Below, piece by piece: positions 2,604 through 32,493 of a stretch of DNA of 64,000 nt. The DNA is from Giardia intestinalis (lineage: Eukaryota). Below the pieces are notes generated by a model. The model was not told the origin of the DNA. It ran no database searches and saw only the letters and a program-made list of their open reading frames with translations. Position numbers and translations under genes: made by a program. The DNA lies in the NCBI GenBank assembly GCA_000002435.2, contig CM018789.1; one strand, given 5' to 3'. Each line of letters starts with the position of its first letter. Within the stretch, counting starts at the first letter, position 1.

Positions 2604-2954
2604 TCACAGCCTCTGCTTGATCCACTCCTTCATTGCAACGACCTCGCGGGGTCCAGAGTACTCCTCGACAAACTTGCTGTCCTTGTAGAACTTGACCGTC
2701 GGGTAGCCCTCGATGCCCTCCGACCCGCACAGCTCGTTAGCCTTGGTGCAGTCGACCTCGGCGATGACCACACCCTCGGGAGCGTCATCAGACAGATCGA
2801 CATACTTCGGGGCGAGGGCCTTGCAGTGGCCGCACCAGGGCGCGAAGAACTTGACCATCATCGGCTTGCCCTTCGCGAGCTCGGCCTTGAAGCTCGAGGT
2901 GACGTCCAGGACGGCGCCGAAGGCAGAGGCGACGAGGAGGAGGCCGGCAATCAT
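2604..2954 (-). CDS. single-domain thioredoxin/protein disulfide isomerase-like secreted protein (CGHC active site), paralog A
   Basis: FFAPWCGHCKALAP thioredoxin motif. N-terminal signal peptide MIAGLLLVASAFGAV. The ORF-track start at 3008 is GTG; the first ATG is at 2954, preceded by 'caaattaaaaATG'. Ends ...KQRL. Confidence 0.8.
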   Translation of the reverse strand: MIAGLLLVASAFGAVLDVTSSFKAELAKGKPMMVKFFAPWCGHCKALAPKYVDLSDDAPEGVVIAEVDCTKANELCGSEGIEGYPTVKFYKDSKFVEEYSGPREVVAMKEWIKQRL

Positions 2955-3007
2955 TTTTAATTTGCGGGGCGTTTTTTGAATGGCACCATATGACGTGTTG
3001 AGATGCA
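2809..3007. repeat. 199-bp segment 100% identical (inverted) to 32090..32288; covers 5' flank plus the N-terminal 48 codons of the PDI-like gene
   Basis: I reverse-complemented 2761..3007 by hand and compared it with 32089..32300. It matches exactly up to ...ggccctcgcccc, then identity drops to about 65-70%. Confidence 0.85.
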
Positions 3008-3109
3008 CTAGGCAATGCTAATAAAAAATACCAGATAACGTAAACCCTGCGCTTGTACTACCCTCGCAATAGTTTGATAAAATTAGTAGGATTGACTCGG
3101 AAAATTAAT

Positions 3110-3913
3110 ATGACACCGAATTGTAGCGACCCAACTTTACGCTACACAATCAAGGATGATACTATAATTGAAGAAACCCTTAGGGAGTGCAGCGACTTTA
3201 AGACTGCCGAGTATGTTCAAACTAAGAGCATATCACTTGACAAGATTCTACCAAGAGAAAAGTGGCTGTGGACGGACGAACGTTCCCATGTCAGTGCATC
3301 AATTGCTAGGATCGGACAATTGTTGGTGATATTTGGCATGCACTGTACAGGGGGCCAGAGCTGCTGTGGACAGGAAGATACTAATGTGACCATAATATTC
3401 AACATGGTTGACAATACTAGTCGTGTAACCATATCGGCCGAGGTGCCCCCAAGAGTTGGACAGACAGTTACGCGCATAGGAGATCTCCTTGTCCTGCACG
3501 GCGGAGAACATTGTTCTTGCCATCGAGCAAAGTTCCCCGAAAACATCTGCCAATACGAGGTGCCACTTGTAGACAAATATAATGACACATATACGCTGGA
3601 TGTAGATGAGTGTAGGTGGAAGAAATTGACAACGCACAATCCTCCACCTCCTTCATCTGGCCATGAAGCACGAGAGCTGGGCACATCTCAGCTCCTTATC
3701 TGGGGAGCTGATCTGTCTACTCCATACGTCCTTGACCTTGTATCTCTGGAGTGGAGCCCCAAGCCGATGATGTCTCAAGCCTTCAAAAGCTCGATAAGAA
3801 GCATCCAGTCCACTGATTACCTACATAAAGATTCGCTGGACGAGTACAAAAACGAAGGCCTGAGATACAGAGAACAGATGCAAACTAAGAGACGCCAACG
3901 CAAGCTCATATAA
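3110..3913 (+). CDS. hypothetical protein, possible kelch-repeat (beta-propeller) protein
   Basis: The ORF-track start at 3053 is TTG; the first ATG is at 3110 ('aaaattaatATG'). Repeated hhhhGG...W-like blades (LLVIFGMHCTGG, LLVLHGGEH, LLIWGADL). Confidence 0.4.
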   Translation: MTPNCSDPTLRYTIKDDTIIEETLRECSDFKTAEYVQTKSISLDKILPREKWLWTDERSHVSASIARIGQLLVIFGMHCTGGQSCCGQEDTNVTIIFNMVDNTSRVTISAEVPPRVGQTVTRIGDLLVLHGGEHCSCHRAKFPENICQYEVPLVDKYNDTYTLDVDECRWKKLTTHNPPPPSSGHEARELGTSQLLIWGADLSTPYVLDLVSLEWSPKPMMSQAFKSSIRSIQSTDYLHKDSLDEYKNEGLRYREQMQTKRRQRKLI

Positions 3914-5699
3914 ATGAAAGCTCTGCTTGATTGACTACTGCCAAGGAAGAGCCGTAAGTATCCATCATATCCGCACGACCCAACTGATCTTCCAACTCGA
4001 CCAGTGCATGAGGGAAAATGCTGTACTGCACAATGCGGCCACTAACCGTTAAGACTATTACCTTGCTGTCGTGAAGGATGGCCGACACTATGGCCTCTCC
4101 ACAATCAGCTTTGCCATGCCACCTATAGTACGGGGAGAAGATAGGCGAGGTCTCATCATCCAGAGCAAGAAGAGGTAGTCCAGTAACTAGATCCTTCGGT
4201 TTTATTATCCATCCAGCCAATTGACCACCTAAGCTGCACGCAATCACAATCTCCTCATCTAGAGCAGTCACAGAAGGTATATAGCCGTGAACCAAAGAGA
4301 TAACGGGCGCCTCGAATACCAAGCAGCGACTCGGCGCAATACTGGCTAAGTGCCTAACAATCTCAGACAGCCCCTGAACAGGGACGGTAGCAGAGCCTCC
4401 TGCAGCCAACCGAACAATTATGGTTCCTGCCATATGCCCTGTAATGCACAAGGGAGAGGCATCTGCGAACTCGCACGCAGCAGACGTGGCAGACGAAAAC
4501 ACCGTCTGCTTCTCGTTGGACACGCAAAGCTTGGCTGGCATCTCGATTATAATGGCTGGCTCCAAAAGGGCTCTCTGATTGTATATTCTTTGATCCCTTT
4601 TCGAGAGAACAAAGTCCAGTGTGATGGTCATCGTTGCAACACAGTTAGATTCGTAGAGCACGATCAGGGTCATTTGCTTCGTCCTTACAGAGGTACTTTT
4701 TGCAGTAACATCCAGTATTATGAGGCCCCGCACCGGAGAAAAATATGAGCGCGATAAAGAAGTTGTTATAAGGGCAGTATGAGATGTCGATATGTGCGAA
4801 TAAGTAATCTTGACAAGGTCAGGGTTTAATAGTGTTGAGAAGTTGCCTCCAGGTTGCATTATGTGGTGGTTGATTGTATACACAGTGACCTCACCAGTTG
4901 CAAATCCTAGCACGATAAAATCTTGATAAGTCTTTATAATTGTTGGCACGTCTGCCAAATTAAATAGACAAACGGCTTCGATAGATGGGTAGCCAGGTAC
5001 GGTTACAGTGTTCAGAAAATGGGTCTTGGAAAGCTCTCTATAGCTTTGTGCATTGGAAGAAGGAGAACACAGCACAATCATTATAACAACATTGTGCACT
5101 TGATAAAGACAGATGAAAAAGTCTAAGTTCAAAAGGGTAACGATCTTGAATGCAATAGGGAACAAGGTTATATCAACGTGTTTGTGAGCTTGAGATAGGA
5201 TGAGGTCGTGCAAATTTATGGGTCCTTGAGTTACCAAGTTGGATTCCGATGATGCGTCTGCCGTGTCGTCTAGAAGGAGATCGAGGATCGCTTCTGCCTG
5301 CATAGAATTAGTAATCATTTCTACCAACACAGAAGCCAAGCGGTGTCCATCATTGGCTAATCTGGCCAAGCGCGCCTTATCCTGCAGAAGTTCATAAACA
5401 AGCTGGCGTTCGCTATCATTAATTGGTTGCTCTTGGGTCGCAGACAGCGCAGGTGGAGAGGAGTTCGCACCAGCTGGAGCTATGTCCAGGGTACAACTTG
5501 TTTCTGACAGCTGTATGTGGCGGTGGGGCGCTCTTTCTCTTGTGCTCTCACCGACAGCATCTATTGGGCTAGCTGTGAGCTTTGCTTCGTGGATGTTTGC
5601 CAACATTGCAGTAATACGCTCTGCTATATCTACATTTGCGCGGAGAGCAGACTGCGAGTCAGCAATCAACTCGGCTACATTATCGGCATCATGTTTCAT
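3906..5699 (-). CDS. hypothetical protein (~597 aa)
   Basis: The ORF-track start at 5723 is GTG; the first ATG (cat at 5697-5699) is preceded by 'gaaattttaATG'. Long ORF. Its 3' end overlaps the convergent 3110..3913 gene by 8 bp. Confidence 0.5.
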   Translation of the reverse strand: MKHDADNVAELIADSQSALRANVDIAERITAMLANIHEAKLTASPIDAVGESTRERAPHRHIQLSETSCTLDIAPAGANSSPPALSATQEQPINDSERQLVYELLQDKARLARLANDGHRLASVLVEMITNSMQAEAILDLLLDDTADASSESNLVTQGPINLHDLILSQAHKHVDITLFPIAFKIVTLLNLDFFICLYQVHNVVIMIVLCSPSSNAQSYRELSKTHFLNTVTVPGYPSIEAVCLFNLADVPTIIKTYQDFIVLGFATGEVTVYTINHHIMQPGGNFSTLLNPDLVKITYSHISTSHTALITTSLSRSYFSPVRGLIILDVTAKSTSVRTKQMTLIVLYESNCVATMTITLDFVLSKRDQRIYNQRALLEPAIIIEMPAKLCVSNEKQTVFSSATSAACEFADASPLCITGHMAGTIIVRLAAGGSATVPVQGLSEIVRHLASIAPSRCLVFEAPVISLVHGYIPSVTALDEEIVIACSLGGQLAGWIIKPKDLVTGLPLLALDDETSPIFSPYYRWHGKADCGEAIVSAILHDSKVIVLTVSGRIVQYSIFPHALVELEDQLGRADMMDTYGSSLAVVNQAELSFI

Positions 5700-5800
5700 T
5701 AAAATTTCGCCGAGGGGCTCCACGTGTACGATCGGCCACGCCCCAGCCTGTGGGACTTGTTGTAGACGTATACTGCGTACGGAACTCCTGTAAGGGTTTA

Positions 5801-5806
5801 CTACAG
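5801..5806 (+). promoter_or_regulatory. CTACAG box (Myb2-type C(T/A)ACAG encystation element) about 40 bp upstream of the GlcN6P deaminase ATG
   Basis: The exact hexamer 'ctacag' lies in 'gtttactacagcagtagcag'. Known Giardia encystation genes carry this Myb2 site in their short promoters. A single 6-mer is weak evidence by itself. Confidence 0.3.
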
Positions 5807-5845
5807 CAGTAGCAGTATATATGTAACTGCCTCGCCAAAATAAAA

Positions 5846-6646
5846 ATGCCGTCCATCCACGTCTCCAAATGCGCTGATCCAGCCATAAAGCTTGCCCACC
5901 GTATCGCGGAAGTTGTCCGCAGCAAGCCGAATTGCGTTCTGGGCCTGGCGACCGGATCGACCCCCATCCCCGTCTACCAGGAGCTTGCCCGTCTCCACCG
6001 CGAGGAAGGCCTAGACTTCTCGCAGGTCAGGACTTTCAACCTGGACGAGTATGCAGGGCTCCCTCCCACGCACGACCAGAGCTACCGCTTCTTCATGGAG
6101 GAGCACCTCTTCAGCAAGGTCAATATAAAGCCGGAGAATGTACACTTCCTCAATGGAATGGCTTCGGACTACGAAAAGGAGTGCGAGCGCTATGAGCAGG
6201 AGCTCAAGGCGATTGGCCCCTGCGATGTCTGGCTTCTGGGGATCGGGCACAACGGTCACATCGCCTTCAACGAGCCGGGGTCCCCGAGAGACAGCAGGAC
6301 GCGCGTCGTCTGCCTGACCCAGAGCACGATCGACGCCAACGCGCGCTTCTTCGGAAACGACAAGTCGAAGGTCCCGACCAAGGCCCTCTCTGTGGGGATA
6401 GCAACCATCATGGAGAGCCGCGAGATCCTCCTTCTCGCCACCGGTGAGAGCAAGCGCGAGGCTGTTACTAAGAGTGTTAAAGGAAAGTGCGAGACCCATT
6501 GCCCGGCCTCCTTCCTCCATGAACATCCTCACTGTCGTTTCTATGTCGACATGGATGCAGGCAAGGAGGTGGATAACACTTGTTGCCAAGCTACAAACCA
6601 AGCAAGCTGCTGCGGCTCCACTTCCTGTCACGCTGCAAAAGCTTAA
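5846..6646 (+). CDS. glucosamine-6-phosphate deaminase/isomerase (NagB family)
   Basis: Full-length NagB-like sequence (LGLATGSTP, NLDEY, GIGHNGHIAFNEPGS, FFGND). ATG at 5846 preceded by 'ccaaaataaaaATG'. Unusual Cys-rich C-terminal tail (CCQATNQASCCGSTSCH). Confidence 0.9.
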   Translation: MPSIHVSKCADPAIKLAHRIAEVVRSKPNCVLGLATGSTPIPVYQELARLHREEGLDFSQVRTFNLDEYAGLPPTHDQSYRFFMEEHLFSKVNIKPENVHFLNGMASDYEKECERYEQELKAIGPCDVWLLGIGHNGHIAFNEPGSPRDSRTRVVCLTQSTIDANARFFGNDKSKVPTKALSVGIATIMESREILLLATGESKREAVTKSVKGKCETHCPASFLHEHPHCRFYVDMDAGKEVDNTCCQATNQASCCGSTSCHAAKA

Positions 6647-6898
6647 ACACGTGAATGGATGCCAATAAGTGAATATCTGTCCATGTCATCTTCAAACCAA
6701 GCAAGCGTGGAACTCTGCAGCTTCCTGGCCACAGCAAGGATATCCGCTCATAGATTCTGAATGATGGTAACAGCACCGAGCCAATTCGGCGCAACTAGAT
6801 AGACAGAGGTGAATTTCGCTGTGAATTTCACATTGCAATTATTTGCACCTGTATTTAAATTTGAATCTCAACAACTAAGCAAGACAAGAGATTGAGCT

Positions 6899-8923
6899 AT
6901 GTCCAGCAGTTCGTCTGTCCATTTTGAAGAAAGCAGCGACGACGGAAGGTTTATTCGAGTACACCCCCTCCTTCAGGCAGATGAGAATGAGCCAGAGAAA
7001 GTGACGCTTACTGGGTTTCTGGATGACCTCAAAGACGCACTTGCCGACCAAGACATGCTAGCTCTTATGGCCGTGGAGAGGGACAACATATCAACGAAGA
7101 GCGCAAACGTTCACGTTAAAGGAGTCACATCCTTCGAGCAGGCAGCAGCAGACCGAGTCCTTGTCCAACGGCAAGTATTCAACGACGTCTTGAAGTGGAA
7201 ACCTCTTTCAGCAGCGCAAACACGTGCAGATGTTGTCCTTAACTTTGCAGAGGACGGCATATCGGTACAGCCATCTTTTGAGCCAATCAAGCAACCAAAG
7301 CGCAAGGACTACGAAAAGAAACTCAGCAAGGATAGTAGCAACATAGCCAAAGAGCTCTGTGGAGATAGCGTTGATGCCACCCTCAAATTGGCTGGCCTTG
7401 TGCCTCTTGACGAGAGTGATAGTGAGAACATAAAGTCGAAATTAGCCCAAGAACAAGATTCCCTGGATATAATGACCCAGCAACAAGAGGCCCACCGATC
7501 CACTGCAGAGATTGCTCGTCTTCGGTCGCTGCTCTACTACAATGAACAAAAGTTAAAGGCCTGGGCGAAGATTAAGTCCAAGAAGTTTCGTAAAGTGCAC
7601 AACAGAGATAAACGATTAGCGCGACTTGAAAAGCGGCAGGAAGAGTGGAAGGAAAAGCATCGCTCAGCGGTGATGGAGCAGGCAGAGGACTTTCTAGATT
7701 CGCAATACAAGCTCACAAATGCTTCACTTGACACTTTCCAGCAGCAGACACGCAGAAATACTAAGGCAGACGATGAGTTTGAGACCCATAAGGTAGACGT
7801 CGACGATGTGCCCGAGTACGGCGAGGCCCCCATCGATAGAAATGCAAAGGGTGTAATGAGACTTGCATTCATGACCAGGGCGCTACAGGAACAAAGGGAT
7901 GCACGAGATGCTATTGCCAATGTCAGAGACAGTGATTGGGATAGCGCTGGTGACTCTGACGAAGATGGTGGTGTCGTCAAATCTGAATCACAACCCCGGA
8001 TTCCACGCCCTAATACAACTGAAAATCAGGTCCTGAAGGCCCATATTGATATGAAGGAAGATGACCAGCAACTGGAGCCAGAGCTTGTTGGCGAAAGAGA
8101 TATTATTCGCAAAGCTCAGCTAGCCAAGGTAAAGGAAGCAAAGACCAAGGGAAAGATAATCATTAAGGGGTGTAACGTAGCAAATAGATCGGCTACTGTC
8201 ATTGACAACCCGTTTCTTAAGCGTTTCAGCTCATCAATTTCAGCCTCCTTGGCGACATCAAACGAAATACATATCAGCGACCTGCCAGCCATAGCTAATG
8301 AGAACGTCCTGCCAAATGTCCCTCGTCCAGGTAATGTTGCGGCCTCTGCACTCACAGCAGATGTAGACCCAGAGCTGGAGTTTGCAGCTCAGAAATACAG
8401 CCTTGCCCTCCAGGAATCCCAGCCGGTTGCTCCAGAAAAGGAGCTGATGGGATGGGGAACCTGGTTTGGAGAAGGCATGTCTACCTACGACAAGGAAAAG
8501 CTTACGTTTAGACAGGAAGCGCGGCGCGCAGCTGTCACTGCAGAACTAAATAGAAGGATGGGCAGACGGAGAGACATTAGGGTTGCGAATGTCTCTATTA
8601 GCGAGGCGTCCAACCCTGCCATTGTAGAGCTATATGCCGCACACGGGATCCAAGGGATAACTGACGATGAATACGCAACATACCTATCAACCGCCGTAGG
8701 CCCAGAGTGGCAATCGATGACAGGATATCGCGGAAGCATACAAGCAGGGCGCCGGGTGGAGAAGGGACGCATGATTTTGCCCGCACAGCTTCCACAAGAC
8801 TACCAAAAGAAGATGGACGCGAGCCTAGAGAAGGAGCAAAAGTTACGGAAGCAGCTGGAGGCACAAATGCAGCTAATTCACAAAACAAAGCTAACCCAGC
8901 AGAGACGCAGCCTCAAACTATAA
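6899..8923 (+). CDS. U3 snoRNP protein Utp14-like (nucleolar, highly charged)
   Basis: AWAKIKSKKFRKVHNRDKRLARLEKR basic motif and C-terminal ELMGWGTWFGEGMS (the GWGSW-type Utp14 C-terminal signature). Acidic/basic low-complexity body. Confidence 0.55.
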   Translation: MSSSSSVHFEESSDDGRFIRVHPLLQADENEPEKVTLTGFLDDLKDALADQDMLALMAVERDNISTKSANVHVKGVTSFEQAAADRVLVQRQVFNDVLKWKPLSAAQTRADVVLNFAEDGISVQPSFEPIKQPKRKDYEKKLSKDSSNIAKELCGDSVDATLKLAGLVPLDESDSENIKSKLAQEQDSLDIMTQQQEAHRSTAEIARLRSLLYYNEQKLKAWAKIKSKKFRKVHNRDKRLARLEKRQEEWKEKHRSAVMEQAEDFLDSQYKLTNASLDTFQQQTRRNTKADDEFETHKVDVDDVPEYGEAPIDRNAKGVMRLAFMTRALQEQRDARDAIANVRDSDWDSAGDSDEDGGVVKSESQPRIPRPNTTENQVLKAHIDMKEDDQQLEPELVGERDIIRKAQLAKVKEAKTKGKIIIKGCNVANRSATVIDNPFLKRFSSSISASLATSNEIHISDLPAIANENVLPNVPRPGNVAASALTADVDPELEFAAQKYSLALQESQPVAPEKELMGWGTWFGEGMSTYDKEKLTFRQEARRAAVTAELNRRMGRRRDIRVANVSISEASNPAIVELYAAHGIQGITDDEYATYLSTAVGPEWQSMTGYRGSIQAGRRVEKGRMILPAQLPQDYQKKMDASLEKEQKLRKQLEAQMQLIHKTKLTQQRRSLKL

Positions 8924-8991
8924 CTGTTGCTATTGACCAGGACTCAGCAGCTTACGACTCATCTGCCAGTTCAGGTAGCCATAAGTAAATC

Positions 8992-9183
8992 TCAAAAAGT
9001 GAACGCTGGGCTGGTCATCAGAGAGGATCCCGGGAACCTGGACAAAAAGCGTACCCGCTGCTCCGAATACTTGTCATCGGGACTAAATTTTGCAGGATGT
9101 GCGGTGCGAGTCACGACCCCACAGTGCGGACAAGCCTCTTCGAGCGTGTATGCGTCGCATGAGGGACACTTACAAAGAATCAT
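8992..9183 (-). CDS. NOP10: H/ACA snoRNP subunit Nop10
   Basis: 63 aa. TRTAHPAKFSPDDKYSEQRV matches the conserved Nop10 core (SAHPARFSPDDKYSRQR). ATG confirmed. Confidence 0.85.
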   Translation of the reverse strand: MILCKCPSCDAYTLEEACPHCGVVTRTAHPAKFSPDDKYSEQRVRFLSRFPGSSLMTSPAFTF

Positions 9184-9191
9184 TTTTATAA

Positions 9192-9461
9192 ATGGAAGAC
9201 ATAGAAAAGCCGTCTATCACGATTAAAAACTGGTACGCCGTGGTGGAGTGGTCCTATAACATCGACGAGGCCAATTGCAGCATATGCAAAAGCCCCCTCT
9301 CCGAGCTATGCCCCGAATGTGCCGACCTCCTCACTCCTGTTTGCAGATCCGTGCGAGGGAGGTGTGGGCACGAGTATCACACGCACTGTATTCAGCAGTG
9401 GGTCGACAGTAACAAGACATGTCCATTATGCATGGCCGATTGGGTTGTTTCGGAGTGCTGA
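9192..9461 (+). CDS. RING-H2 RING-box protein (Rbx1/Hrt1 or APC11 family)
   Basis: WYAVVEWSYNIDEANCSICKSPL...CPEC...RGRCGHEYHTHCIQQWV...CPLC is the RING-box arrangement with the extra Zn-binding insert. ATG at 9192 is only 8 bp from the divergent Nop10 ATG. Confidence 0.75.
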   Translation: MEDIEKPSITIKNWYAVVEWSYNIDEANCSICKSPLSELCPECADLLTPVCRSVRGRCGHEYHTHCIQQWVDSNKTCPLCMADWVVSEC

Positions 9462-21497: not shown

Positions 21498-21579
21498 TCT
21501 ACAATTTTAAATCCCAACCGTGCAATGATGACTTGTAATTGTCAAATTTTGAAAGTAAAGGGCATCAAAATTCGTCTGC

Positions 21580-25206: not shown

Positions 25207-25253
25207 ACCTTGCACAGGAGTTTACCCAAATAGCAATCTTATCACAGGGCGAC

Positions 25254-25901
25254 TTAGGATGGCAAAGTAAGTGATTTATGTGTAAGCTTGCTCTTAAGCC
25301 AGTAGTAGAAGAACTCTGCATAGAGCACTATTTGAATAATGCCTGTCGCCCAATTGATCCAGCCCATTCTAACGCCCTTCACTGTTCTGTAAATCCAGTT
25401 GAGCAGATAGAAGAACCTGTATCCACCTAACGTTGCAACATAGTCTGCTGTAAAGCTTTCCACGTTGCGGCTCAGGTATAGCATAAAGAATTGCGGGACC
25501 ATTGCAAAGGCTTCCAGAACAAGGGACCCTGTCCAGAAGATCTCGAAGATTGTCCACGGTCGTGCAAATAGAACGCCTGCCACATATGACGGAATTATGA
25601 CGTAGAGTACAGGCGTTTTGTCCAGTGGAGCGTGATAGGTATCTCTCAATCGGAAAGCTATAAGATAAATGGTGTAGAAGGTAGTGATGAGGTAATATAC
25701 CTTAAAGATCCAGTTGTATATTGAGGCAAAATTCCAGAATATGTCGAGGTATCGTGTAGAGAAGACAAATGCATAGATGAGCTGTGTCTTAAGAGATATG
25801 CCTGCACATGACTGGGACTTGTGGAGCTTCCTGATGAGAAGCCCCCGCGATGTGGCATGGAGGATGTCACCTGTTATCCTAAAAACGTTCATCGATGACA
25901 T
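25254..25901 (-). CDS. ERD2: ER lumen protein-retaining receptor (KDEL receptor, ERD2)
   Basis: MNVFRITGDILH...SCAGISLKTQLIYAFVFSTRYLDIF...ILWTFSI-type seven-TM ERD2 sequence. Collinear with yeast and human KDELR over 215 aa. Confidence 0.9.
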   Translation of the reverse strand: MSSMNVFRITGDILHATSRGLLIRKLHKSQSCAGISLKTQLIYAFVFSTRYLDIFWNFASIYNWIFKVYYLITTFYTIYLIAFRLRDTYHAPLDKTPVLYVIIPSYVAGVLFARPWTIFEIFWTGSLVLEAFAMVPQFFMLYLSRNVESFTADYVATLGGYRFFYLLNWIYRTVKGVRMGWINWATGIIQIVLYAEFFYYWLKSKLTHKSLTLPS

Positions 25902-25987
25902 CGGAATCTTTTATTAATTGCCTCATTAATTGCCTCGCACCGGGGCTTTCTACAAGTCGCTAGAGTCTGCAGATCAAGGGCATCACC

Positions 25988-28900
25988 ATGGCCATTCCGC
26001 TTGGTCTCCTTAGCCCACTGGAGCAGAGCTGGCTGCGCTTCCTCCATACAGTCCACCTCAGTGACCCAACCTACTCTTTCCAAAAGATATTCACTCACCT
26101 CCCCAGCCGACACTTGATCTCTCTCCAGTCGAAGTTTGATAACGCTCCCGGCGGGTGTCTGTCCTGCAGCGAATTTGTTTCTGCTATTGCCTCTTCTCGC
26201 GAGATATTCGCCTCCATCAACGAGCGTGGAACTACCGGACTAAAACGTTTGGCACGTGTCCTAAACTCATACATAAGCATTTACAACGATGATGTTCATG
26301 GGGGAAACAAGTTTCTTGCAAGATTACGTGCCCTTATACTGATTTTTAATCATATCGATATAACGCGTGTTAATAAGCTTTCCTGGGCAGATTTTTCTAA
26401 TTTCCTTTCCAGCTTTGTCACTCCAGCGCTTGCGATATCAAATTCGCACGTTGCTACAATCTATAATACGTCAATCTACTCTAAATACTTACTTTCTACC
26501 AAAATCTTAGAGCCCATCTATTCGGTAAGCTACTCATCTGAAGCAGATGCATTCTTGGCCTGTTGCCGAGACAACAATGTGCACATTTTAGACAGCAGCA
26601 CGTTTTTGCGCCAAGCGATTCTGCAGGAGCACAAGGCCCTCCCTGTGGTTGCCACATCTTTTAAGCCTGCGATTGAAGGCTTTAATCACGCAAAAAACAG
26701 AAGCCAGCCTGGTAATGGGCGACGAGTAATAGGTGGATTTAATTATATCACCTCTGGAGCTGATCGGAAAATAATAATATGGAATGGAATAGCACATACT
26801 CCGGTCTCCATCCTTCCAACAGAAAACATTCACACTGCACTGGCAACCATAGATGAGCTCCACTATCGGAAGTCCTCTCTGTCGCCGGCGATCTTCAGTG
26901 GAGATGACCATGGAAACGTACACTTTTGGAAGCTTACTGAGCAGCATATTCCTCAGCAGGCCTCCCCCACACGTACCTATAAGAAATTCAACTCAGAAGA
27001 GCCCACCAATGTCTCGCTCATACGAGACATGTACTTTGCCAAAAGATCGAAGGATCCTTCTCAGCAGGTGCAACCAAAAGGTCACCTTAGAACGTCTTCC
27101 AAGCAGCCAAGACCAAGTGACTTCTTTCTAAAATCAGATGCACAGGCAGATGAAACTAAGAGAACGACTGATACGCTGGTTGCTGGTATTGATACTAGTG
27201 CTATCAATGATGAACTTGAAGATGACAGCCACGGTACTGCCGTGCAGTTTTACAATTCGATGACCAGCGCGAGGCGGAAGCCCAATTCGTCTGTTCTAAA
27301 AGAAGATGCAGAGAACTTAATACTCTTTTACGACATGAAGAATTTTAGTGGGCACGTGCCTTTTGCTGAAGGATATAATCTTTCGTTCTTCTTAGAGGAC
27401 AGCGACGACTGGAAGAAAGCCTCGGGAGAATATCAGCAGGACACCTACAAGTACGATGCTGTCCTGACTCGTCTTTTCAACGACACATTTGAAGCCAGCA
27501 ACATAGCAGCACCAACTCCTGAGTTCACAGAGCTTGCCAAGAGGATGGCAACGGCAATCCAAGCAAAAGATCCGCCTGATTCGGCAGCTAACAATGGCTT
27601 ATTCTCTGCTGCATCAAATATGAATGAACAGAAACTGACTCTAGCAGAATCAAATGTGTATACACATAATCAGAGACAGACAGACTCTAGTACCTCTAGT
27701 CAAGATAGCGATGAATCGACCGGCTTCAGCGACGATTCGGATGATGACTCTATTAAGCAAGTTCAGCGAAACAAGGCCCTGATACAAAAGCATATGGCGA
27801 CAAACCGGCGCAGACAGAAGTACATTCAAAACTCCTTTAAATCTATGGGGACACAAGAGCTAGCTCCAATACCTATCTGGACCATCAAAGCCCACAAGGA
27901 TTGGGTTACGTGCCTTTGCCTTGACACAGTGACAAGCAACAATTCCACGATTTTGGCATCTGGCGGTGCAGACGGACTGATAAATGTCTACGATATCAAT
28001 AGAGGGGTTGCAAACTCCAATCTGCATTTTCATAAAGACTCTATTACAGGCTTGGCATGGCTTCATCGTAGAGGTCTCCTAGCAGCGTGCTCGCACGACC
28101 GCAAGCTCACTCTGTGGAGTCTTGGGACCTCCAATACAAAACCCGTGTCAGTAATATCCACATCTGATGCCCCGTATGTTGGGGTTTTTTCTCACAAGCT
28201 CAAGAGTGAGATTGTCTCAGTGGATGCAACGGGGAAGGTGGCAGTCTATGATGTGCGGAGGATGGAGCCAATTCACACAATCGGAAATAATATGGCGAAG
28301 ACAGGAAGGATCGTCTCTGCAGCATATAACGGGTATACGGGCCTTATCTCAACCGTGGGGAGGACCATAAACTATGTCGTTCCTGTCAACGAGGATGACA
28401 CTCATCGCTGCTCGCTTTCACCAATTAATGTTTGGTGCTGTTCTCCCACTGCTCCTATCGTCTTGTTTGTTAGTGACGGTTCCCTTCAGTTTTGGGATAT
28501 GCTTTATGGGAAGCTATTGCGGTCTGTTAGCCACGTTTTTACGCCCTCGTTGTACTTTAGGTCTAAGGAAATAGAACGAAACACGCGGGAAATGCTTGAT
28601 CTCCCACATCTGGATGTCGAGGAAACTAGGTCTGCCATGAAGACCAGCGCCGCGTCCTACAATTTATTCAACTTCCTTCCTCCTATTGGCAAGGATGATG
28701 TAGGTAAGTCTGGGTCGTCCCGAGGGGCTCATAAGCAAAGCTTTTCATACAACTCTAACTATGATAAATTGAAGAAGACCAAAGAAGGGGCACTAGGATA
28801 TATCGATTCTCGCTTAAATAACAGTGATGAGGCTCAGATGTACCAGAAGAATGTATCGAATCTATTCAACACAGACTTCTTCGGAGAAATTAACCTGAAG

Positions 28901-31900
28901 CAGTTGTCATTGGACAATATTCGCGAGTTACACAACCAAGAGCAGCAATTTCTAAAGAAGTTAGAGAAGGGCGACTGCGGTACAGTTACGTTCGGGCTCG
29001 AGTGCACCGCAATTGCTCTCTCTTCAGACACGAATGTTTATGGTGTGGCTATGACGGATGGACGCGTGACACTTTATGAACGGGTAACAGATAAGGTTCT
29101 CATGAAAATTCGGTACACGAGTGCATATCACGATCAGAAGCAGCTCCACATGGAGCAGTACTTTGATGCCATCGGAGTTAAAATGGAGCCCCAGCTTGAT
29201 AGAGTCGTCAGTAGTGACTCTTTATGTTCAGGAGTTGACTGGTCCGGATCCAAAGCCTCCAAGGGCATGCGGGTGCGTCAACTAGCGGCGGCAGCTAAGG
29301 ACGACTTCCATAAAGAGGCCTGTGAAGGGGCGTCTTCTGCGGAGGCTAACTTGTATGATGATGAGCCATGCACCAATCTGTTTTTCTCTGAACACCTCAC
29401 CCCTCTCTGTGTCCATCACCACGGACTCGGAGCAATGAACTCAAACGCCAAGAGTATGGCGAATGAGGCACAGCTTTCTCTGAAGAGTATGGAAGAAGGA
29501 TCTAGCACGCAACAGGTAGTGGCAAGTGCCACGATAGCCACGCAGGAATCGACCTTTACACCAATGATAGTCTGGCTTTTCTTCAAACAATCTGCACGTG
29601 TATACACATACAGGATTGCAAAGGACCAACCATACCTCCTAGGACGGCTTAAGCTGAGATCGTCATGGACAGACATCACGCCGTGTCACGACCTCAATGT
29701 GGTACACATCTACATGAACACAGAAGTCTATACTCTGAATGCAGATAGTGTAATGCTTGCCAAAGCAGAAGTTTCATTGGTGGATGCCAAGCAAACAACT
29801 CTAGATGCAGCAAGAGCAGCTGCAGCAGCATTTAAATTGGAGATAAAGTTTATTCTCACACCGGGAGAGCGCTTCCAATTGTGGATCCTCTCCTGCGGTC
29901 TTATCTTTGTTGTTCACATTAAGACGGGGTTCCTTCTAGCGGCTCTATCTATCCCCAACTTAATATATTGTGCATACGCCTCTTGTATGGAGGAATTCAA
30001 CAGCCTGGTCGTTCTTGATCATCTGGGACAGCTTCATTTCTACGACATAAGTGAGATAATCAGCCTTGTGACAAAGTTTGAAAAGGTCTTCATGCTTACG
30101 ATGCCCAAGGGCTCTAGCTATGCTAACTTTGCATCGGCCGTCCACTTTATTAATACGTTGAGCACCCAAAGAACCGGGGAGGGACTCTATGCGCCGTCTG
30201 ATGACCTGGAGTTTATGACAAAGGCGAGCGAGAACCTTAAAAGAAGCTACCCCGTCACCTCTGATATGCTGTCGATAGAGTCTCCGGCTCCAATTCAGGT
30301 GCAGGTGAGCACCAACTTTTTAACAAAGCGACACTACTTCACAGTCTTCGATGTCATGCCTAGGGATAGACACATATTTTCCAGCACGGTTGAACCAATT
30401 ATCTGGGAGATTGTGGACCTGTGCAACAACAACCTGAACATGAAGCAGATAAACACCAATCTGAAAACCCGCTCCCTACTCCCAGAGGAAAAGGCTTGGT
30501 ATTCCGGCCATCCTGTCATAGTCTGCCCGAAGCTATTGAACACTATTTCTACGGTACCGTTTCTGATTGATTTAGATAAGGGAAACATAGATGATAAACT
30601 GGACTCCGATACTACCAAGTCAACGAAAGTGCTGACTCAGTTGTCTAACTTCGGCATAATATCCATACAAGCTATTCGTGTGATCGGGCTTTATCTCTGC
30701 GTGTGTACCACAGGCTATATTCTGGCCTTCGATGCCCGTGAGGCGTGTTACTTGTGCACCCTGGTTCACCGAGGCTGGCCGCAGAAAATCAAAAAGTATC
30801 TAAGATACAATCTCACTACCGCTACACCGAACAGAATACAGCGCCAGTTATTAAATAGATTCATTTCCGAAGAGAAAAAATCCGTGTACTTGCATGCTTA
30901 TGTTTCCGACCAAATAAAGGAGCAGCTCAAGCAGATGGAGCTCGAGAGCCTCAACGCATCAGTATCTAGTTCCACAATGGTTGGCGGACTGTCTTCCATA
31001 ACGCTGAAGACCCCCCAGGGGTCAAGGCTCAATAAGGTGCAGACACTGTTTCCCACACCGATGCTCGGGGAGGTACAGACTCCGTTGGAGGAGACGTGCA
31101 GCGACGAGAGAGACCAATTGAATACGACACGTTCAGTGGCCAATTCAAAGAGGAATCTGACCATTATCACACGAAACAAAGATGGAACCCTGTTGACATC
31201 AGCACCTACAGCCTTTACACCCTATAGTTTTGGGAAGCTAATTGGTGCATCTGCCCCGATCAATGATGTCAGATTGCTGACACGCCCTGATGCCCCCTTT
31301 CAGCCCAAGGACCTCGGAGTCGGAAAATTCTTGATTCAATCCTGCATATCGGACATCAAGAACACGGCATTCAAGCAACTGAGCCCATCGGAGCGGGCAT
31401 CAATGGCGAAAGGATACACTAAAAGCATGAACAGGACAAAGAGCGCTATGACCCATCTAGTGGCTCTAGACACATCCCTGAAGGAGCTGTACAAAAATAA
31501 GACTGGGGCCAGCCCGATGCGCGTTCCACTTTCATCTTTAGATGGAACTGCGGGGAAGACCTCCAGCATCTTGGGAGCATCATTGAAGGAGAAGAATGTG
31601 GACTTAACGAGAAGCATGTTGGACATACCCGATCAGGACACTCAACAGGAAGAAGGAATGCAGGAGTCTGAGGTAAATAAGATCCTTGGAAGGGCGTCCG
31701 GAACAATAAAATCTCTAGATAGTACCGGGACGCGGCTTGACCTCACCGCGATAGTCTCTCGAAGAACATCCTCTATTTTCAACAGAGAAAATTCTCCTGT
31801 GCGGAAACTGCGTGCAAGTACAGTCGGAGCAACAGAGCAGCTGACCCCGCGGGTTCCTGAAAATATAGTTGAATCAGAAACCAATATGCAGGAGTCTACT

Positions 31901-32035
31901 GCCGTGCCACCAAGTGCGATATCTGAAACCTATGATATCCTTAGCATGCAGAAGCAAGATATAGCCATGTGCTACAAGAAGAAAATGACAACCATTAACG
32001 GGGGGTACGTGAATTACAACGCCATTAAAAAGTAG
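25988..32035 (+). CDS. large hypothetical protein (2015 aa) containing WD40-like repeats
   Basis: Long ORF with ATG confirmed. WD-like blades (ILASGGADGLINVYD, LAACSHDRKLTLWS, SVDATGKVAVYDV, SDGSLQFWDM). Remainder low complexity. Confidence 0.6.
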   Translation: MAIPLGLLSPLEQSWLRFLHTVHLSDPTYSFQKIFTHLPSRHLISLQSKFDNAPGGCLSCSEFVSAIASSREIFASINERGTTGLKRLARVLNSYISIYNDDVHGGNKFLARLRALILIFNHIDITRVNKLSWADFSNFLSSFVTPALAISNSHVATIYNTSIYSKYLLSTKILEPIYSVSYSSEADAFLACCRDNNVHILDSSTFLRQAILQEHKALPVVATSFKPAIEGFNHAKNRSQPGNGRRVIGGFNYITSGADRKIIIWNGIAHTPVSILPTENIHTALATIDELHYRKSSLSPAIFSGDDHGNVHFWKLTEQHIPQQASPTRTYKKFNSEEPTNVSLIRDMYFAKRSKDPSQQVQPKGHLRTSSKQPRPSDFFLKSDAQADETKRTTDTLVAGIDTSAINDELEDDSHGTAVQFYNSMTSARRKPNSSVLKEDAENLILFYDMKNFSGHVPFAEGYNLSFFLEDSDDWKKASGEYQQDTYKYDAVLTRLFNDTFEASNIAAPTPEFTELAKRMATAIQAKDPPDSAANNGLFSAASNMNEQKLTLAESNVYTHNQRQTDSSTSSQDSDESTGFSDDSDDDSIKQVQRNKALIQKHMATNRRRQKYIQNSFKSMGTQELAPIPIWTIKAHKDWVTCLCLDTVTSNNSTILASGGADGLINVYDINRGVANSNLHFHKDSITGLAWLHRRGLLAACSHDRKLTLWSLGTSNTKPVSVISTSDAPYVGVFSHKLKSEIVSVDATGKVAVYDVRRMEPIHTIGNNMAKTGRIVSAAYNGYTGLISTVGRTINYVVPVNEDDTHRCSLSPINVWCCSPTAPIVLFVSDGSLQFWDMLYGKLLRSVSHVFTPSLYFRSKEIERNTREMLDLPHLDVEETRSAMKTSAASYNLFNFLPPIGKDDVGKSGSSRGAHKQSFSYNSNYDKLKKTKEGALGYIDSRLNNSDEAQMYQKNVSNLFNTDFFGEINLKQLSLDNIRELHNQEQQFLKKLEKGDCGTVTFGLECTAIALSSDTNVYGVAMTDGRVTLYERVTDKVLMKIRYTSAYHDQKQLHMEQYFDAIGVKMEPQLDRVVSSDSLCSGVDWSGSKASKGMRVRQLAAAAKDDFHKEACEGASSAEANLYDDEPCTNLFFSEHLTPLCVHHHGLGAMNSNAKSMANEAQLSLKSMEEGSSTQQVVASATIATQESTFTPMIVWLFFKQSARVYTYRIAKDQPYLLGRLKLRSSWTDITPCHDLNVVHIYMNTEVYTLNADSVMLAKAEVSLVDAKQTTLDAARAAAAAFKLEIKFILTPGERFQLWILSCGLIFVVHIKTGFLLAALSIPNLIYCAYASCMEEFNSLVVLDHLGQLHFYDISEIISLVTKFEKVFMLTMPKGSSYANFASAVHFINTLSTQRTGEGLYAPSDDLEFMTKASENLKRSYPVTSDMLSIESPAPIQVQVSTNFLTKRHYFTVFDVMPRDRHIFSSTVEPIIWEIVDLCNNNLNMKQINTNLKTRSLLPEEKAWYSGHPVIVCPKLLNTISTVPFLIDLDKGNIDDKLDSDTTKSTKVLTQLSNFGIISIQAIRVIGLYLCVCTTGYILAFDAREACYLCTLVHRGWPQKIKKYLRYNLTTATPNRIQRQLLNRFISEEKKSVYLHAYVSDQIKEQLKQMELESLNASVSSSTMVGGLSSITLKTPQGSRLNKVQTLFPTPMLGEVQTPLEETCSDERDQLNTTRSVANSKRNLTIITRNKDGTLLTSAPTAFTPYSFGKLIGASAPINDVRLLTRPDAPFQPKDLGVGKFLIQSCISDIKNTAFKQLSPSERASMAKGYTKSMNRTKSAMTHLVALDTSLKELYKNKTGASPMRVPLSSLDGTAGKTSSILGASLKEKNVDLTRSMLDIPDQDTQQEEGMQESEVNKILGRASGTIKSLDSTGTRLDLTAIVSRRTSSIFNRENSPVRKLRASTVGATEQLTPRVPENIVESETNMQESTAVPPSAISETYDILSMQKQDIAMCYKKKMTTINGGYVNYNAIKK

Positions 32036-32089
32036 TCGCTGTTAAGTCCCCTCTGTATGCTATGGGTGACTAATGTGTCCGTTGCCTGA

Positions 32090-32288
32090 TGCATCTCAAC
32101 ACGTCATATGGTGCCATTCAAAAAACGCCCCGCAAATTAAAAATGATTGCCGGCCTCCTCCTCGTCGCCTCTGCCTTCGGCGCCGTCCTGGACGTCACCT
32201 CGAGCTTCAAGGCCGAGCTCGCGAAGGGCAAGCCGATGATGGTCAAGTTCTTCGCGCCCTGGTGCGGCCACTGCAAGGCCCTCGCCCC
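32090..32288. repeat. 199-bp segment 100% identical (inverted) to 2809..3007; covers 5' flank plus the N-terminal 48 codons of the PDI-like paralog B
   Basis: Same by-hand comparison as for 2809..3007. Weaker homology continues through the rest of both genes. Confidence 0.85.
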
Positions 32289-32493
32289 CACCTACGTGGA
32301 GCTTGGGGACAATGCCCCCGAGGGCGTGGTCATCGCCGAGGTCGACTGCACTGTTGCCCGTGAGGTCTGCCAGGAGGAGGGTGTCCGTGGATACCCGACT
32401 CTACGCTTCTACAAAAATGGCGAGTTCCTCGAGGCTTACTCCGGTGCCCGCGACCTTGAGAGCCTTAAGGCTTTTGTGACTTCTAAGAAGTAA
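32143..32493 (+). CDS. single-domain thioredoxin/PDI-like secreted protein (CGHC), paralog B
   Basis: N-terminal 48 aa identical to paralog A (signal peptide plus FFAPWCGHCKALAP). C-terminal half about 55% identical. ATG at 32143 ('caaattaaaaATG'); an extra in-frame ATG exists at 32089. Confidence 0.8.
   Translation: MIAGLLLVASAFGAVLDVTSSFKAELAKGKPMMVKFFAPWCGHCKALAPTYVELGDNAPEGVVIAEVDCTVAREVCQEEGVRGYPTLRFYKNGEFLEAYSGARDLESLKAFVTSKK

What the first reader, a model, noticed from the sequence alone, without database searches (positions are those of the whole stretch)
2604..32493. Inverted 199-bp perfect duplication across two PDI-like genes brackets about 29 kb (gene-conversion tract or inversion substrate)
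Two single-domain CGHC thioredoxin/PDI-like genes lie in opposite orientation 29 kb apart: 2604..2954 on the minus strand and 32143..32493 on the plus strand. Their 5' flank (about 52 bp), signal peptide and active-site region are 100% identical over 199 bp (2809..3007 vs 32090..32288). The remaining about 200 bp of coding sequence is only about 65-70% identical at nucleotide level and about 55% at protein level. The abrupt switch from 100% to diverged identity inside the ORFs is the signature of a recent gene-conversion tract homogenising promoter, signal peptide and catalytic motif. The inverted perfect repeats could also mediate inversion of the intervening 12-gene block. At the upstream boundary the copy-A codon is GTG where copy B has an in-frame ATG, so paralog B could carry an 18-aa N-terminal extension.
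Basis: seen in the sequence. Interest (0 to 1): 0.65.

Follow-up and report, generated by a model that had tools for sequence, protein, structure and literature searches.

The report
Recurrent gene conversion between Giardia PDI3/PDI5
Two old, diverged Giardia protein-disulfide-isomerase genes lying head-to-head 29 kb apart keep overwriting each other's promoter, signal peptide and active site by gene conversion; this is a clean example of a well-known process, and a flip of the DNA between them is not shown.

Summary
Window 2809..3007 (-) and 32090..32288 (+) are 199/199 identical. The rest of the two ORFs is 62% identical in DNA and 54% in protein, and sequence upstream of the tract is unrelated.

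The genes are Giardia intestinalis WB PDI3 (2604..2954, -) and PDI5 (32143..32493, +).

In the 5' tract the two paralogs of one genome differ at 0-2 sites, while orthologs of different assemblages differ at 3-13. Lineage-specific and even isolate-specific substitutions sit in both paralogs. In the 3' part, sequences group by paralog, with 58-65 differences.

Tract ends differ between lineages: -53..+146, -54..+146, -44..+134 and -26..+146 relative to the ATG. One isolate shows a patch that extends further. This is recurrent, bidirectional interlocus gene conversion, that is, concerted evolution of part of a gene.

The inversion idea is unproven. Six contigs carry recombinant junctions of both reciprocal types. 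All are short or stop within 100 nt of the gene, and one has an N exactly where the paralogs differ. Every contig with long flanks on both sides has the window's orientation.

The 18-aa extension is not conserved and is not supported. This is a new instance of a known kind, of moderate interest.

The parts
2604..2954 (-). PDI3 gene (116 aa, single thioredoxin domain, CGHC site). The product is identical to GenBank XP_001709047 / AAF20171.
   Evidence: Exact-sequence look-up; Pfam PF00085 E=6e-29.
32143..32493 (+). PDI5 gene (116 aa, single thioredoxin domain, CGHC site). The product is identical to XP_001709021.2. This is the ancestral locus by synteny with G. muris.
   Evidence: The G. muris PDI5 lies directly after the orthologous WD40 gene.
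2809..3007 (-). Copy A of the 199-nt perfectly identical conversion tract (positions -53 to +146 relative to the ATG).
32090..32288 (+). Copy B of the 199-nt perfectly identical conversion tract.
2955..3007 (-). Shared 53-nt 5' flank of PDI3. It contains the AT-rich AATTAAAAATG initiator-like sequence and is the likely whole core promoter.
   Evidence: Sequence. Giardia promoters under 65 bp with an AT-rich initiator at the transcription start: PMC3656124. Promoter function is inferred, not tested.
32090..32142 (+). The same 53-nt flank at PDI5. Its -53..-27 part is PDI3-type sequence that is present at PDI5 only in assemblages A and E.
2746..2771 (-). Second, 26-nt identical block (+184..+209, codes VVIAEVDCT), PDI3 copy. 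It also carries lineage-specific bases shared by both paralogs.
   Evidence: B-specific +192T and +195G, and A2-specific +195T, occur in both paralogs.
32326..32351 (+). PDI5 copy of the 26-nt identical block.
2779..2808 (-). Divergent 30-nt segment (+147..+176; 14 mismatches between the WB paralogs) that forms the usual 3' edge of the tract. It is overwritten by PDI5-type sequence in isolate ROBE23 (L017) and in L018.
32089..32091 (+). In-frame upstream ATG that gave the old 134-aa PDI5 annotation. It is not conserved.
3008..32089 (.). Intervening 29,082-nt block that a crossover in the tract would invert. It holds about 14 genes: Kelch, glucosamine-6-P isomerase, Utp14, ankyrin protein, cathepsin-like protease, SNF2/ISWI, ABC transporter, NEK-type kinase, KDEL receptor, a 2015-aa WD40 protein and others.
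3053..3913 (+). Kelch-repeat gene. It marks the PDI3 upstream side and was used to classify junctions in other isolates.
25988..32035 (+). 2015-aa WD40 gene. It marks the PDI5 upstream side and is conserved next to PDI5 in G. muris.

Best explanation
PDI3 and PDI5 are old paralogs. The PDI5 locus is the ancestral one. They lie in inverted orientation 29 kb apart on one Giardia intestinalis chromosome.

Homologous-recombination repair repeatedly uses one copy as template for the other. The result is non-crossover (interlocus) gene conversion with tracts of about 170-260 nt. This keeps the proximal promoter, the signal peptide and the CGHC active-site half identical within each lineage. The C-terminal halves stay diverged and are each under purifying selection.

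The upstream edge of the tract sits where homology ends. The downstream edge sits at a 30-nt segment with 14 mismatches. I infer that this segment blocks heteroduplex extension, and/or that conversions running past it are removed by selection.

Shown here: the identity, the concerted-evolution pattern, the variable end points and transfers in both directions. Inferred: the molecular route (double-strand-break repair by synthesis-dependent strand annealing), the reason for the 3' edge, and the promoter role of the flank.
For: 1. **Excess identity.** A 199-nt exact run sits among 80 differences in 412 nt, with 0 of 200,000 permutations reaching it. dS is 0.03 in codons 1-49 against 1.27 in codons 50-116, and 53 nt of non-coding flank are also identical.

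2. **Concerted evolution.** In -26..+134 the paralogs of one genome differ at 0 sites (A1, A2, E, B-MERR22) or 2 sites (GS_B). A and B differ at 11-13, and A and E at 3. In +211..+351 everything groups by paralog, with 58-65 differences between paralogs against 0-24 between orthologs.
   - The A-versus-B synonymous changes (for example ATT GCC GGC CTC against ATC GCA GGC CTT) occur in both paralogs of every A contig and every B contig.
   - E-specific -2T, +9A and +33G are in both P15 paralogs.

3. **Isolate-level sharing.** The AAAAAATTCCCCTCC variant is in both PDI3 (L001) and PDI5 (L008) of sample ERZ28615481. A2-specific +195T is in both DH paralogs.

4. **Different end points.**
   - WB -53..+146
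   - DH -54..+146
   - P15 -44..+134
   - MERR22 -26..+146

5. **A non-crossover product.** L017 is a PDI3 locus with the Kelch gene on one side and the 534-aa gene on the other. It carries a PDI5-type patch at +147..+176.

6. **Direction PDI3 to PDI5.** The motif ACGTCAYATGGTGCYAT at about -40..-25 is upstream of PDI3 in A, E, B and the divergent L019 lineage. It is upstream of PDI5 only in A and E.

7. **Old duplication.** The C-terminal part of PDI5 is 54/67 identical to G. muris PDI5, while that of PDI3 is 36/67. G. muris PDI5 is syntenic with the WD40 gene.

8. **Both copies functional.** Ortholog dN/dS in the 3' part is about 0.02.
Against: - Most non-WB sequences come from 454 or short-read assemblies. 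Reads from the two copies cannot be told apart inside the tract, so some true paralog differences there could be masked. Three points argue against this mattering: GS_B keeps two internal differences, no A-like allele is seen at the A-versus-B sites in any of the twelve assemblage-B contigs compared, and WB is a chromosome-length record (1,485,438 bp).
- No direct observation of a conversion event or of its intermediates exists.
- Synonymous divergence between assemblages is lower in the tract than in the 3' part (7/35 against 42/91, p=0.008). Plain neutral conversion does not predict this. GC-biased conversion or codon selection may contribute: GC3 is 0.86-0.96 in the tract against 0.55-0.82 outside it.
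Confidence: 0.9

Rival explanations
1. In addition to conversion, reciprocal crossover in the tract really inverts the 29-kb block. Both orientations would then coexist among isolates, or among the four genome copies of a cell.
For: Recombinant junctions of both reciprocal kinds occur in six contigs from six different samples or assemblies.
- WD40 side joined to a PDI3 body and PDI3 3' flank: L003 (GS 2009 assembly), L004, L021, L018.
- Kelch side joined to a PDI5 body and PDI5 3' flank: L013, L014.

L018 switches between +199 and +209, where DH-type paralogs share only 11 nt. That part cannot be a k-mer chimera of DH-like sequences.

Nanopore work predicts many intra-isolate inversions in Giardia: 162 in AWB and 746 in BGS (PMC7048089).
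Against: - Every recombinant contig is under 1.1 kb, or ends 62-85 nt after the stop codon.
- L003 has an N at -10, the very site where the GS paralogs differ (C/T), which indicates a collapsed consensus.
- Several of these contigs have 2.5-3.5x coverage.
- The assembly graph is the same for both orientations when the repeat exceeds the k-mer or read length.
- All contigs with kilobases on both sides show the window's orientation: WB, DH on a single 203-kb contig, P15, GS_B, BAH15c1, Nepal, MERR22, L017, L019, L020.
- L018 can also be explained by a longer conversion tract followed by an assembly chimera.
Confidence: 0.25
2. There is no recombination. The 5' halves are identical because purifying selection on promoter, signal peptide and active site froze them after the duplication.
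For: The tract covers functionally important parts, and its protein sequence is invariant across A, B and E.
Against: Synonymous and non-coding positions are identical within a genome while differing between assemblages. Lineage-specific changes occur in parallel in both copies. End points vary. dS is 0.03 in the tract against 1.27 beyond it.
Confidence: 0.02
3. The identical tract is an assembly artefact of the window, with one copy's sequence pasted on the other.
For: Repeats of this size do confuse assemblers, as the chimeric-looking contigs L003, L004, L013 and L014 show.
Against: The same tract is found in the DH assembly (A2), with both genes on one 203-kb contig. It is also found in other A-type contigs. 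Separate GenBank entries AAF20171 (PDI3) and AAF89535 (PDI5) encode the same first 49 residues.
Confidence: 0.02

Closest known systems
Partial interlocus (ectopic) gene conversion between old paralogs, for example human fetal globin genes HBG1/HBG2, RHD/RHCE and CYP21A2/CYP21A1P (from general knowledge)
   Same: There is a sharp switch from near-100% identity to old divergence inside the genes. Paralogs are more alike within a lineage than orthologs are between lineages. End points vary and transfer runs in both directions.
   Different: The tract here is very short (about 170-260 nt). The partners are inverted and 29 kb apart. The organism is a tetraploid, binucleate protist whose sexual recombination is disputed. 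The tract includes what is probably the whole core promoter.
Gene conversion described in Giardia (AI to AII non-reciprocal conversion, VSP-enriched; PMC12669663)
   Same: Same organism, non-crossover transfer, and an association with GC-rich sequence.
   Different: Those events are between allelic or orthologous regions of sub-assemblages and have a median length of about 3.3 kb. Here the exchange is between two non-allelic housekeeping paralogs. An earlier duplication survey stated that the mechanism for gene conversion was unresolved in Giardia (PMC2829556).
Inversions mediated by inverted repeats through non-allelic homologous recombination, for example F8 intron-22 inversions and the emerin/filamin polymorphic inversion (from general knowledge)
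   Same: Two inverted, identical repeats bracket a gene block, and recombinant junctions of both reciprocal kinds are seen in some contigs.
   Different: The repeat here is only 199 nt, near the lower limit for efficient homologous recombination. No contig with long flanks on both sides, and no long read, shows the inverted state.
Single-domain protein disulfide isomerases of diplomonads (Giardia PDI3/PDI5; Spironucleus and Hexamita thioredoxin-like proteins)
   Same: About 115 aa, an N-terminal hydrophobic leader, one thioredoxin domain and a WCGHC site.
   Different: There is no classical multi-domain a-b-b'-a' PDI architecture and no KDEL end; the two proteins end in KQRL and TSKK.

Membership tests
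Thioredoxin-fold protein disulfide isomerase (single-domain Giardia PDI3/PDI5) | Thioredoxin domain above Pfam's curated threshold | tested here: met
   PF00085: 100.5 and 105.4 bits against a cut-off of 23.5.
Thioredoxin-fold protein disulfide isomerase (single-domain Giardia PDI3/PDI5) | CXXC active site of PDI type (WCGHC) | tested here: met
   APWCGHCK is present in both translations and invariant in 21 relatives.
Thioredoxin-fold protein disulfide isomerase (single-domain Giardia PDI3/PDI5) | Identity with the deposited Giardia PDI3 and PDI5 proteins | tested here: met
   Exact-sequence look-up: XP_001709047 / AAF20171 (PDI3) and XP_001709021.2 (PDI5).
Thioredoxin-fold protein disulfide isomerase (single-domain Giardia PDI3/PDI5) | ER targeting and retention (signal peptide, KDEL-type end) | tested here: inconclusive
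   A hydrophobic N-terminus MIAGLLLVASAFGAV is seen in the sequence. No signal-peptide predictor was available. The C-termini are KQRL and TSKK, not KDEL.
Interlocus gene conversion / concerted evolution | An identical fragment significantly longer than expected from the divergence of the rest (GENECONV-type test) | tested here: met
   199-nt run; the largest permuted run is 76; p is about 3e-25.
Interlocus gene conversion / concerted evolution | Within the tract, paralogs of one lineage are closer than orthologs of different lineages; outside it the reverse holds | tested here: met
   Distance tables for A1, A2, E and two B isolates.
Interlocus gene conversion / concerted evolution | Silent and non-coding sites are homogenised, which is not explained by protein-level selection | tested here: met
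   dS 0.03 against 1.27, and 53 nt of identical flank.
Interlocus gene conversion / concerted evolution | Independent events with different end points, including a product flanked on both sides by the recipient locus | tested here: met
   End points. L017 is a PDI3 locus with a PDI5 patch at +147..+176. Caveat: L017 is a short-read metagenome scaffold.
Polymorphic inversion by recombination between inverted repeats | Inverted repeats of high identity bracketing the segment | tested here: met
Polymorphic inversion by recombination between inverted repeats | Both reciprocal recombinant junctions observed | tested here: inconclusive
   Seen in L003, L004, L018, L021 and in L013, L014, but only in short or truncated contigs. 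L003 has an N at a paralog-discriminating site.
Polymorphic inversion by recombination between inverted repeats | Inverted orientation supported by sequence that spans the repeat with long unique flanks on both sides | tested here: not met
   All contigs with long flanks on both sides in A1, A2, B and E have the window's orientation. Raw long reads could not be examined.

The most novel reading that the evidence does not exclude
The 199-nt tract is also a site of reciprocal crossover, so the 29-kb, roughly 14-gene block exists in both orientations within Giardia populations or among the four genome copies of one cell. The locus would then be a natural, PCR-scorable reporter of both non-crossover and crossover homologous recombination in an organism whose sexual recombination is disputed.
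Probability: 0.25. Interest if true: 0.55.

Novelty: new member of a known kind. Interest (0 to 1): 0.35.

Why it matters
- **A record of ectopic recombination in Giardia.** Giardia's capacity for homologous recombination, and whether it has sex, are debated. This locus records many independent ectopic recombination events across assemblages A, B and E and within sub-lineages. It can be scored with two short amplicons.
- **Annotation.** The locus explains an annotation trap. A PDI3-bodied gene is named 'PDI5' in the GS 2009 assembly, and PDI5 carried an obsolete 134-aa model.
- **Typing and expression studies.** Reads, probes, primers and peptides from the first 49 codons and the promoter cannot distinguish PDI3 from PDI5.
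- **Regulation.** In assemblage A the two genes share what is probably their entire core promoter.

The process itself, partial gene conversion between paralogs, is textbook biology.

Tried and rejected
- **JGI metagenome scan.** I scanned the JGI metagenome contigs for a 47-nt piece of the tract to get more independent contigs. There were 0 hits.
- **Supplements of the nanopore structural-variant paper (PMC7048089).** I searched for the two gene IDs and for 'disulfide isomerase'. Nothing was found.
- **Original papers.** The original PDI papers (PubMed ids 10514458 and 11470836) are not held. I therefore cannot say whether the shared N-terminus was remarked on there.
- **Literature searches.** Searches for Giardia with PDI3/PDI5, gene conversion or concerted evolution found no description of this case.
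- **A rejected lead: the 134-aa PDI3 proteins.** I first read the 134-aa proteins starting with M (P0126) as evidence that the upstream ATG had been copied into PDI3. The DNA of L020 shows GTG, which a gene caller had translated as M.
- **A rejected lead: adjacent GS genes.** The consecutive GS accessions EES99386 and EES99387 suggested the genes were adjacent in GS. The first sits on a contig that joins PDI5 upstream sequence to a PDI3 body and ends 62 nt later.
- **Promoter scan not used.** The sigma-70 promoter and terminator scan does not apply to a eukaryote.
- **Missing partner.** The PDI5 partner of the divergent PDI3 lineage (L019) was not in the protein collection, so concerted evolution could not be tested in that lineage.
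Full report
**What is in the window**

The minus-strand ORF 2604..2954 and the plus-strand ORF 32143..32493 each encode 116 aa. Each has a hydrophobic N-terminus, one thioredoxin domain (PF00085, 100 and 105 bits) and a WCGHC site.

Exact-sequence look-up identifies them as Giardia intestinalis PDI3 (XP_001709047, AAF20171) and PDI5 (XP_001709021.2). Both lie on a 1,485,438-bp chromosome record of isolate WB.

A gapless comparison gives one exact run of 199 nt, 3007..2809 against 32090..32288.
- The run is 53 nt of 5' flank plus 146 nt of CDS.
- After it, 127/205 nt (62%) and 36/67 residues (54%) match.
- Before it, the sequences are unrelated (28/93).

It is the only inverted repeat of at least 40 nt in the 64 kb. 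With 80 differences over 412 aligned nt, no permutation out of 200,000 produced an identical run longer than 76 nt. dS is 0.03 in codons 1-49 against 1.27 in codons 50-116.

**Related sequences**

The protein search and the cluster listing gave orthologs of both genes from several sources:
- DH (assemblage A2)
- GS and BAH15c1 (assemblage B)
- P15 (assemblage E)
- several metagenome or SRA assemblies
- a divergent lineage, L019
- a single G. muris gene

I fetched the DNA of 24 loci and aligned them in register with the ATG.

**Concerted evolution**

Differences in the two regions are as follows.

| Region | Paralogs of one genome | Between assemblages or paralogs |
|---|---|---|
| -26..+134 | 0 (WB, DH, P15, B sample MERR22); 2 (GS_B) | A vs B 11-13; A vs E 3; B vs E 12-13 |
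| +211..+351 | 58-65 between paralogs | 0-24 between orthologs |

- The synonymous A-versus-B changes inside the tract occur in both paralogs of every contig of the respective assemblage. They are ATT GCC GGC CTC against ATC GCA GGC CTT, CTG against CTC, CTC against CTT, and GCC CTC against GCC CTT.
- E-specific -2T, +9A and +33G are in both P15 paralogs.
- Within assemblage B, the flank variant AAAAAATTCCCCTCC is in both genes of sample ERZ28615481, while GS_B has AAAAAAATTCCCCC(C/T) in both.
- A2-specific +195T is in both DH paralogs.

This pattern cannot come from selection on the protein or from a single old event. It is the signature of repeated interlocus gene conversion that has continued after the split of sub-lineages.

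**Tract anatomy and direction**

Exact identity runs, relative to the ATG, are:

| Isolate | Exact run |
|---|---|
| WB | -53..+146 |
| DH | -54..+146 |
| P15 | -44..+134 |
| MERR22 (B) | -26..+146 |
| GS_B | two mismatches (-10, +78) inside -26..+143 |

The usual 3' edge is a 30-nt segment (+147..+176) with 14 mismatches. It is followed by a conserved block (+177..+209, the 26-nt identity at 2746..2771 and 32326..32351). That block again carries lineage-specific bases shared by both paralogs: B has +192T and +195G, and the PDI5 genes of the Nepal and MERR22 samples have the PDI3-like GGGGTAGTC.

Transfers ran in both directions.
- **PDI5 to PDI3.** Scaffold L017 is a PDI3 locus flanked by the Kelch gene and the 534-aa gene. 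Its +147..+176 is PDI5-type, which makes it a non-crossover product. Contig L018 carries PDI5-type sequence to +198 and PDI3-type sequence from +210.
- **PDI3 to PDI5.** The upstream motif ACGTCAYATGGTGCYAT lies before PDI3 in A, E, B and L019. It lies before PDI5 only in A and E. PDI3 promoter sequence was therefore copied onto PDI5 in the A/E lineage.

**Age of the genes**

G. muris has a PDI5-type gene directly after the orthologous large WD40 gene. No second copy lies within 10 kb of it.

The C-terminal part of PDI5 is 54/67 identical to the G. muris protein, against 36/67 for PDI3. The duplication is therefore old and PDI5 sits at the ancestral position.

Between assemblages, each C-terminal half has dN/dS of about 0.02. 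Both genes are maintained as distinct functions.

**Likely mechanism**

The steps below are inferred.
1. A break in or near one 5' half is repaired by strand invasion of the other copy, on the same chromatid, a sister chromatid or another genome copy.
2. Short synthesis follows, then annealing back without crossover.
3. Homology ends about 55-60 nt upstream of the ATG, which sets the 5' edge.
4. The mismatch-dense +147..+176 segment sets the 3' edge by heteroduplex rejection, and/or selection removes conversions of the diverged C-terminal half.

Identity then favours further conversion.

The flank ends in AATTAAAAATG. Giardia promoters of under 65 bp with an AT-rich initiator that positions the transcription start are documented (PMC3656124). 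In assemblage A the two genes therefore probably share their whole core promoter. In B only the proximal 26 nt are shared.

**The inversion idea**

Six contigs join the 'wrong' sides.
- WD40-side upstream with a PDI3 body and PDI3 3' flank: L003 from the GS 2009 assembly, L004, L021, L018.
- Kelch-side upstream with a PDI5 body and PDI5 3' flank: L013, L014.

That is what a crossover in the tract would produce. However:
- All six are under 1.1 kb or stop 62-85 nt after the stop codon.
- Two of them report 2.5-3.5x coverage.
- L003 has an N at -10, exactly where the GS paralogs differ, so reads of both copies were merged.
- A repeat longer than the reads or k-mers gives the same assembly graph for both orientations.

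Every contig with kilobases on both sides shows the window's arrangement. These are WB, DH (both genes on one 203-kb contig, about 29.7 kb apart), P15, GS_B, BAH15c1, Nepal, MERR22, L017, L019 and L020. There is thus no fixed inversion between A1, A2, B and E.

A polymorphic or heterozygous inversion remains possible. I put it at about 0.25. Nanopore studies predict many intra-isolate inversions in Giardia (PMC7048089), but their supplements do not mention these genes.

**The N-terminal extension**

The in-frame ATG at 32089 exists only in WB-type PDI5. DH and P15 have GTG there. Assemblage B PDI5 has unrelated sequence with an in-frame stop, and PDI3 has GTG. The old 134-aa model (Q9NDB1, XP_001709021.1) has been replaced by 116 aa.

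With the initiator-like AATTAAAAATG at the downstream ATG, the extension is unlikely to be made. This is an inference and needs 5' RACE.

**Comparison with what is known, and novelty**

Partial gene conversion between paralogs is well known; the fetal globin genes and RHD/RHCE are examples from general knowledge. Gene conversion has been reported in Giardia between sub-assemblages, with a GC-rich bias (PMC12669663). An earlier duplication survey called the mechanism for gene conversion unresolved in Giardia (PMC2829556).

I found no paper describing conversion between PDI3 and PDI5. The original PDI papers were not available.

I rate this a new member of a known kind. It is a tidy, multiply replicated case that could serve as a recombination reporter, but it is not surprising in principle.

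**Unexplained residue**

Between assemblages the tract has fewer synonymous differences than the 3' part: 7/35 against 42/91, p=0.008, and A against E p=1e-4. Its GC3 is 0.86-0.96 against 0.55-0.82. This fits GC-biased conversion but could also reflect codon preference. The numbers are small.

Noticed in passing
window 60273..64000 (- strand): A large cysteine-rich ORF ends ...CRGKA, the hallmark C-terminus of Giardia variant-specific surface proteins (VSPs; that assignment is from general knowledge). It contains at least 12.2 perfect tandem copies of a 228-nt (76-aa) unit at 61215..64000 and runs off the window end. GC content there reaches 62%.
   Followed up: partly
window 2809..3007 / 32090..32288 and loci L015, L016, L002, L005: The converted tract has higher third-position GC (0.86-0.96) than the rest of the same genes (0.55-0.82). 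It also has fewer synonymous differences between assemblages (7/35 against 42/91). This is a possible signature of GC-biased gene conversion. It is not seen in the divergent L019 lineage.
   Followed up: partly
L003 (GS 2009 assembly, ACGJ01002882), gene at 9588..9938: The protein deposited as EES99386 'PDI5' has a PDI3 body behind PDI5 upstream sequence. The contig ends 62 nt after the stop and has an N at a site that discriminates the paralogs. It is probably a repeat-induced chimeric contig that led to a wrong gene name.
   Followed up: yes
window 25254..25901 (- strand): A KDEL-receptor gene (PF00810, E=1.5e-47) lies inside the block bracketed by the two ER-type PDI genes. Neither PDI ends in KDEL; they end in KQRL and TSKK.
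   Followed up: no
L024 (G. muris CM016925) 10001..10348: G. muris shows only a PDI5-type gene at the syntenic site. PDI3-specific residues (APKY, RE..AMK.W) resemble the single-domain PDIs of Spironucleus and Hexamita. PDI3 may therefore be the older type that G. muris lost. The whole G. muris genome could not be searched.
   Followed up: partly
L019 (Logan ERR3333379 contig 2756) 2548..2898: A PDI3 from an unidentified, more divergent Giardia lineage has 24 substitutions in codons 1-49 relative to WB (dS 1.1). Its PDI5 partner was not in the collection. This is the natural next test of whether conversion operates there.
   Followed up: no
window 22763..22830 and 23849..23916; 11527..11825: Weak direct repeats (68 nt at 71%; three 93-nt units at 68-81%) lie inside the NEK-type kinase/ankyrin gene and the 305-aa ankyrin-repeat gene. 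They are ordinary ankyrin-repeat periodicity.
   Followed up: no
window 5846..6646 (+) and 13079..14005 (+): The block also carries a glucosamine-6-phosphate isomerase gene (PF01182) and a papain-family cysteine protease gene (PF00112).
   Followed up: no
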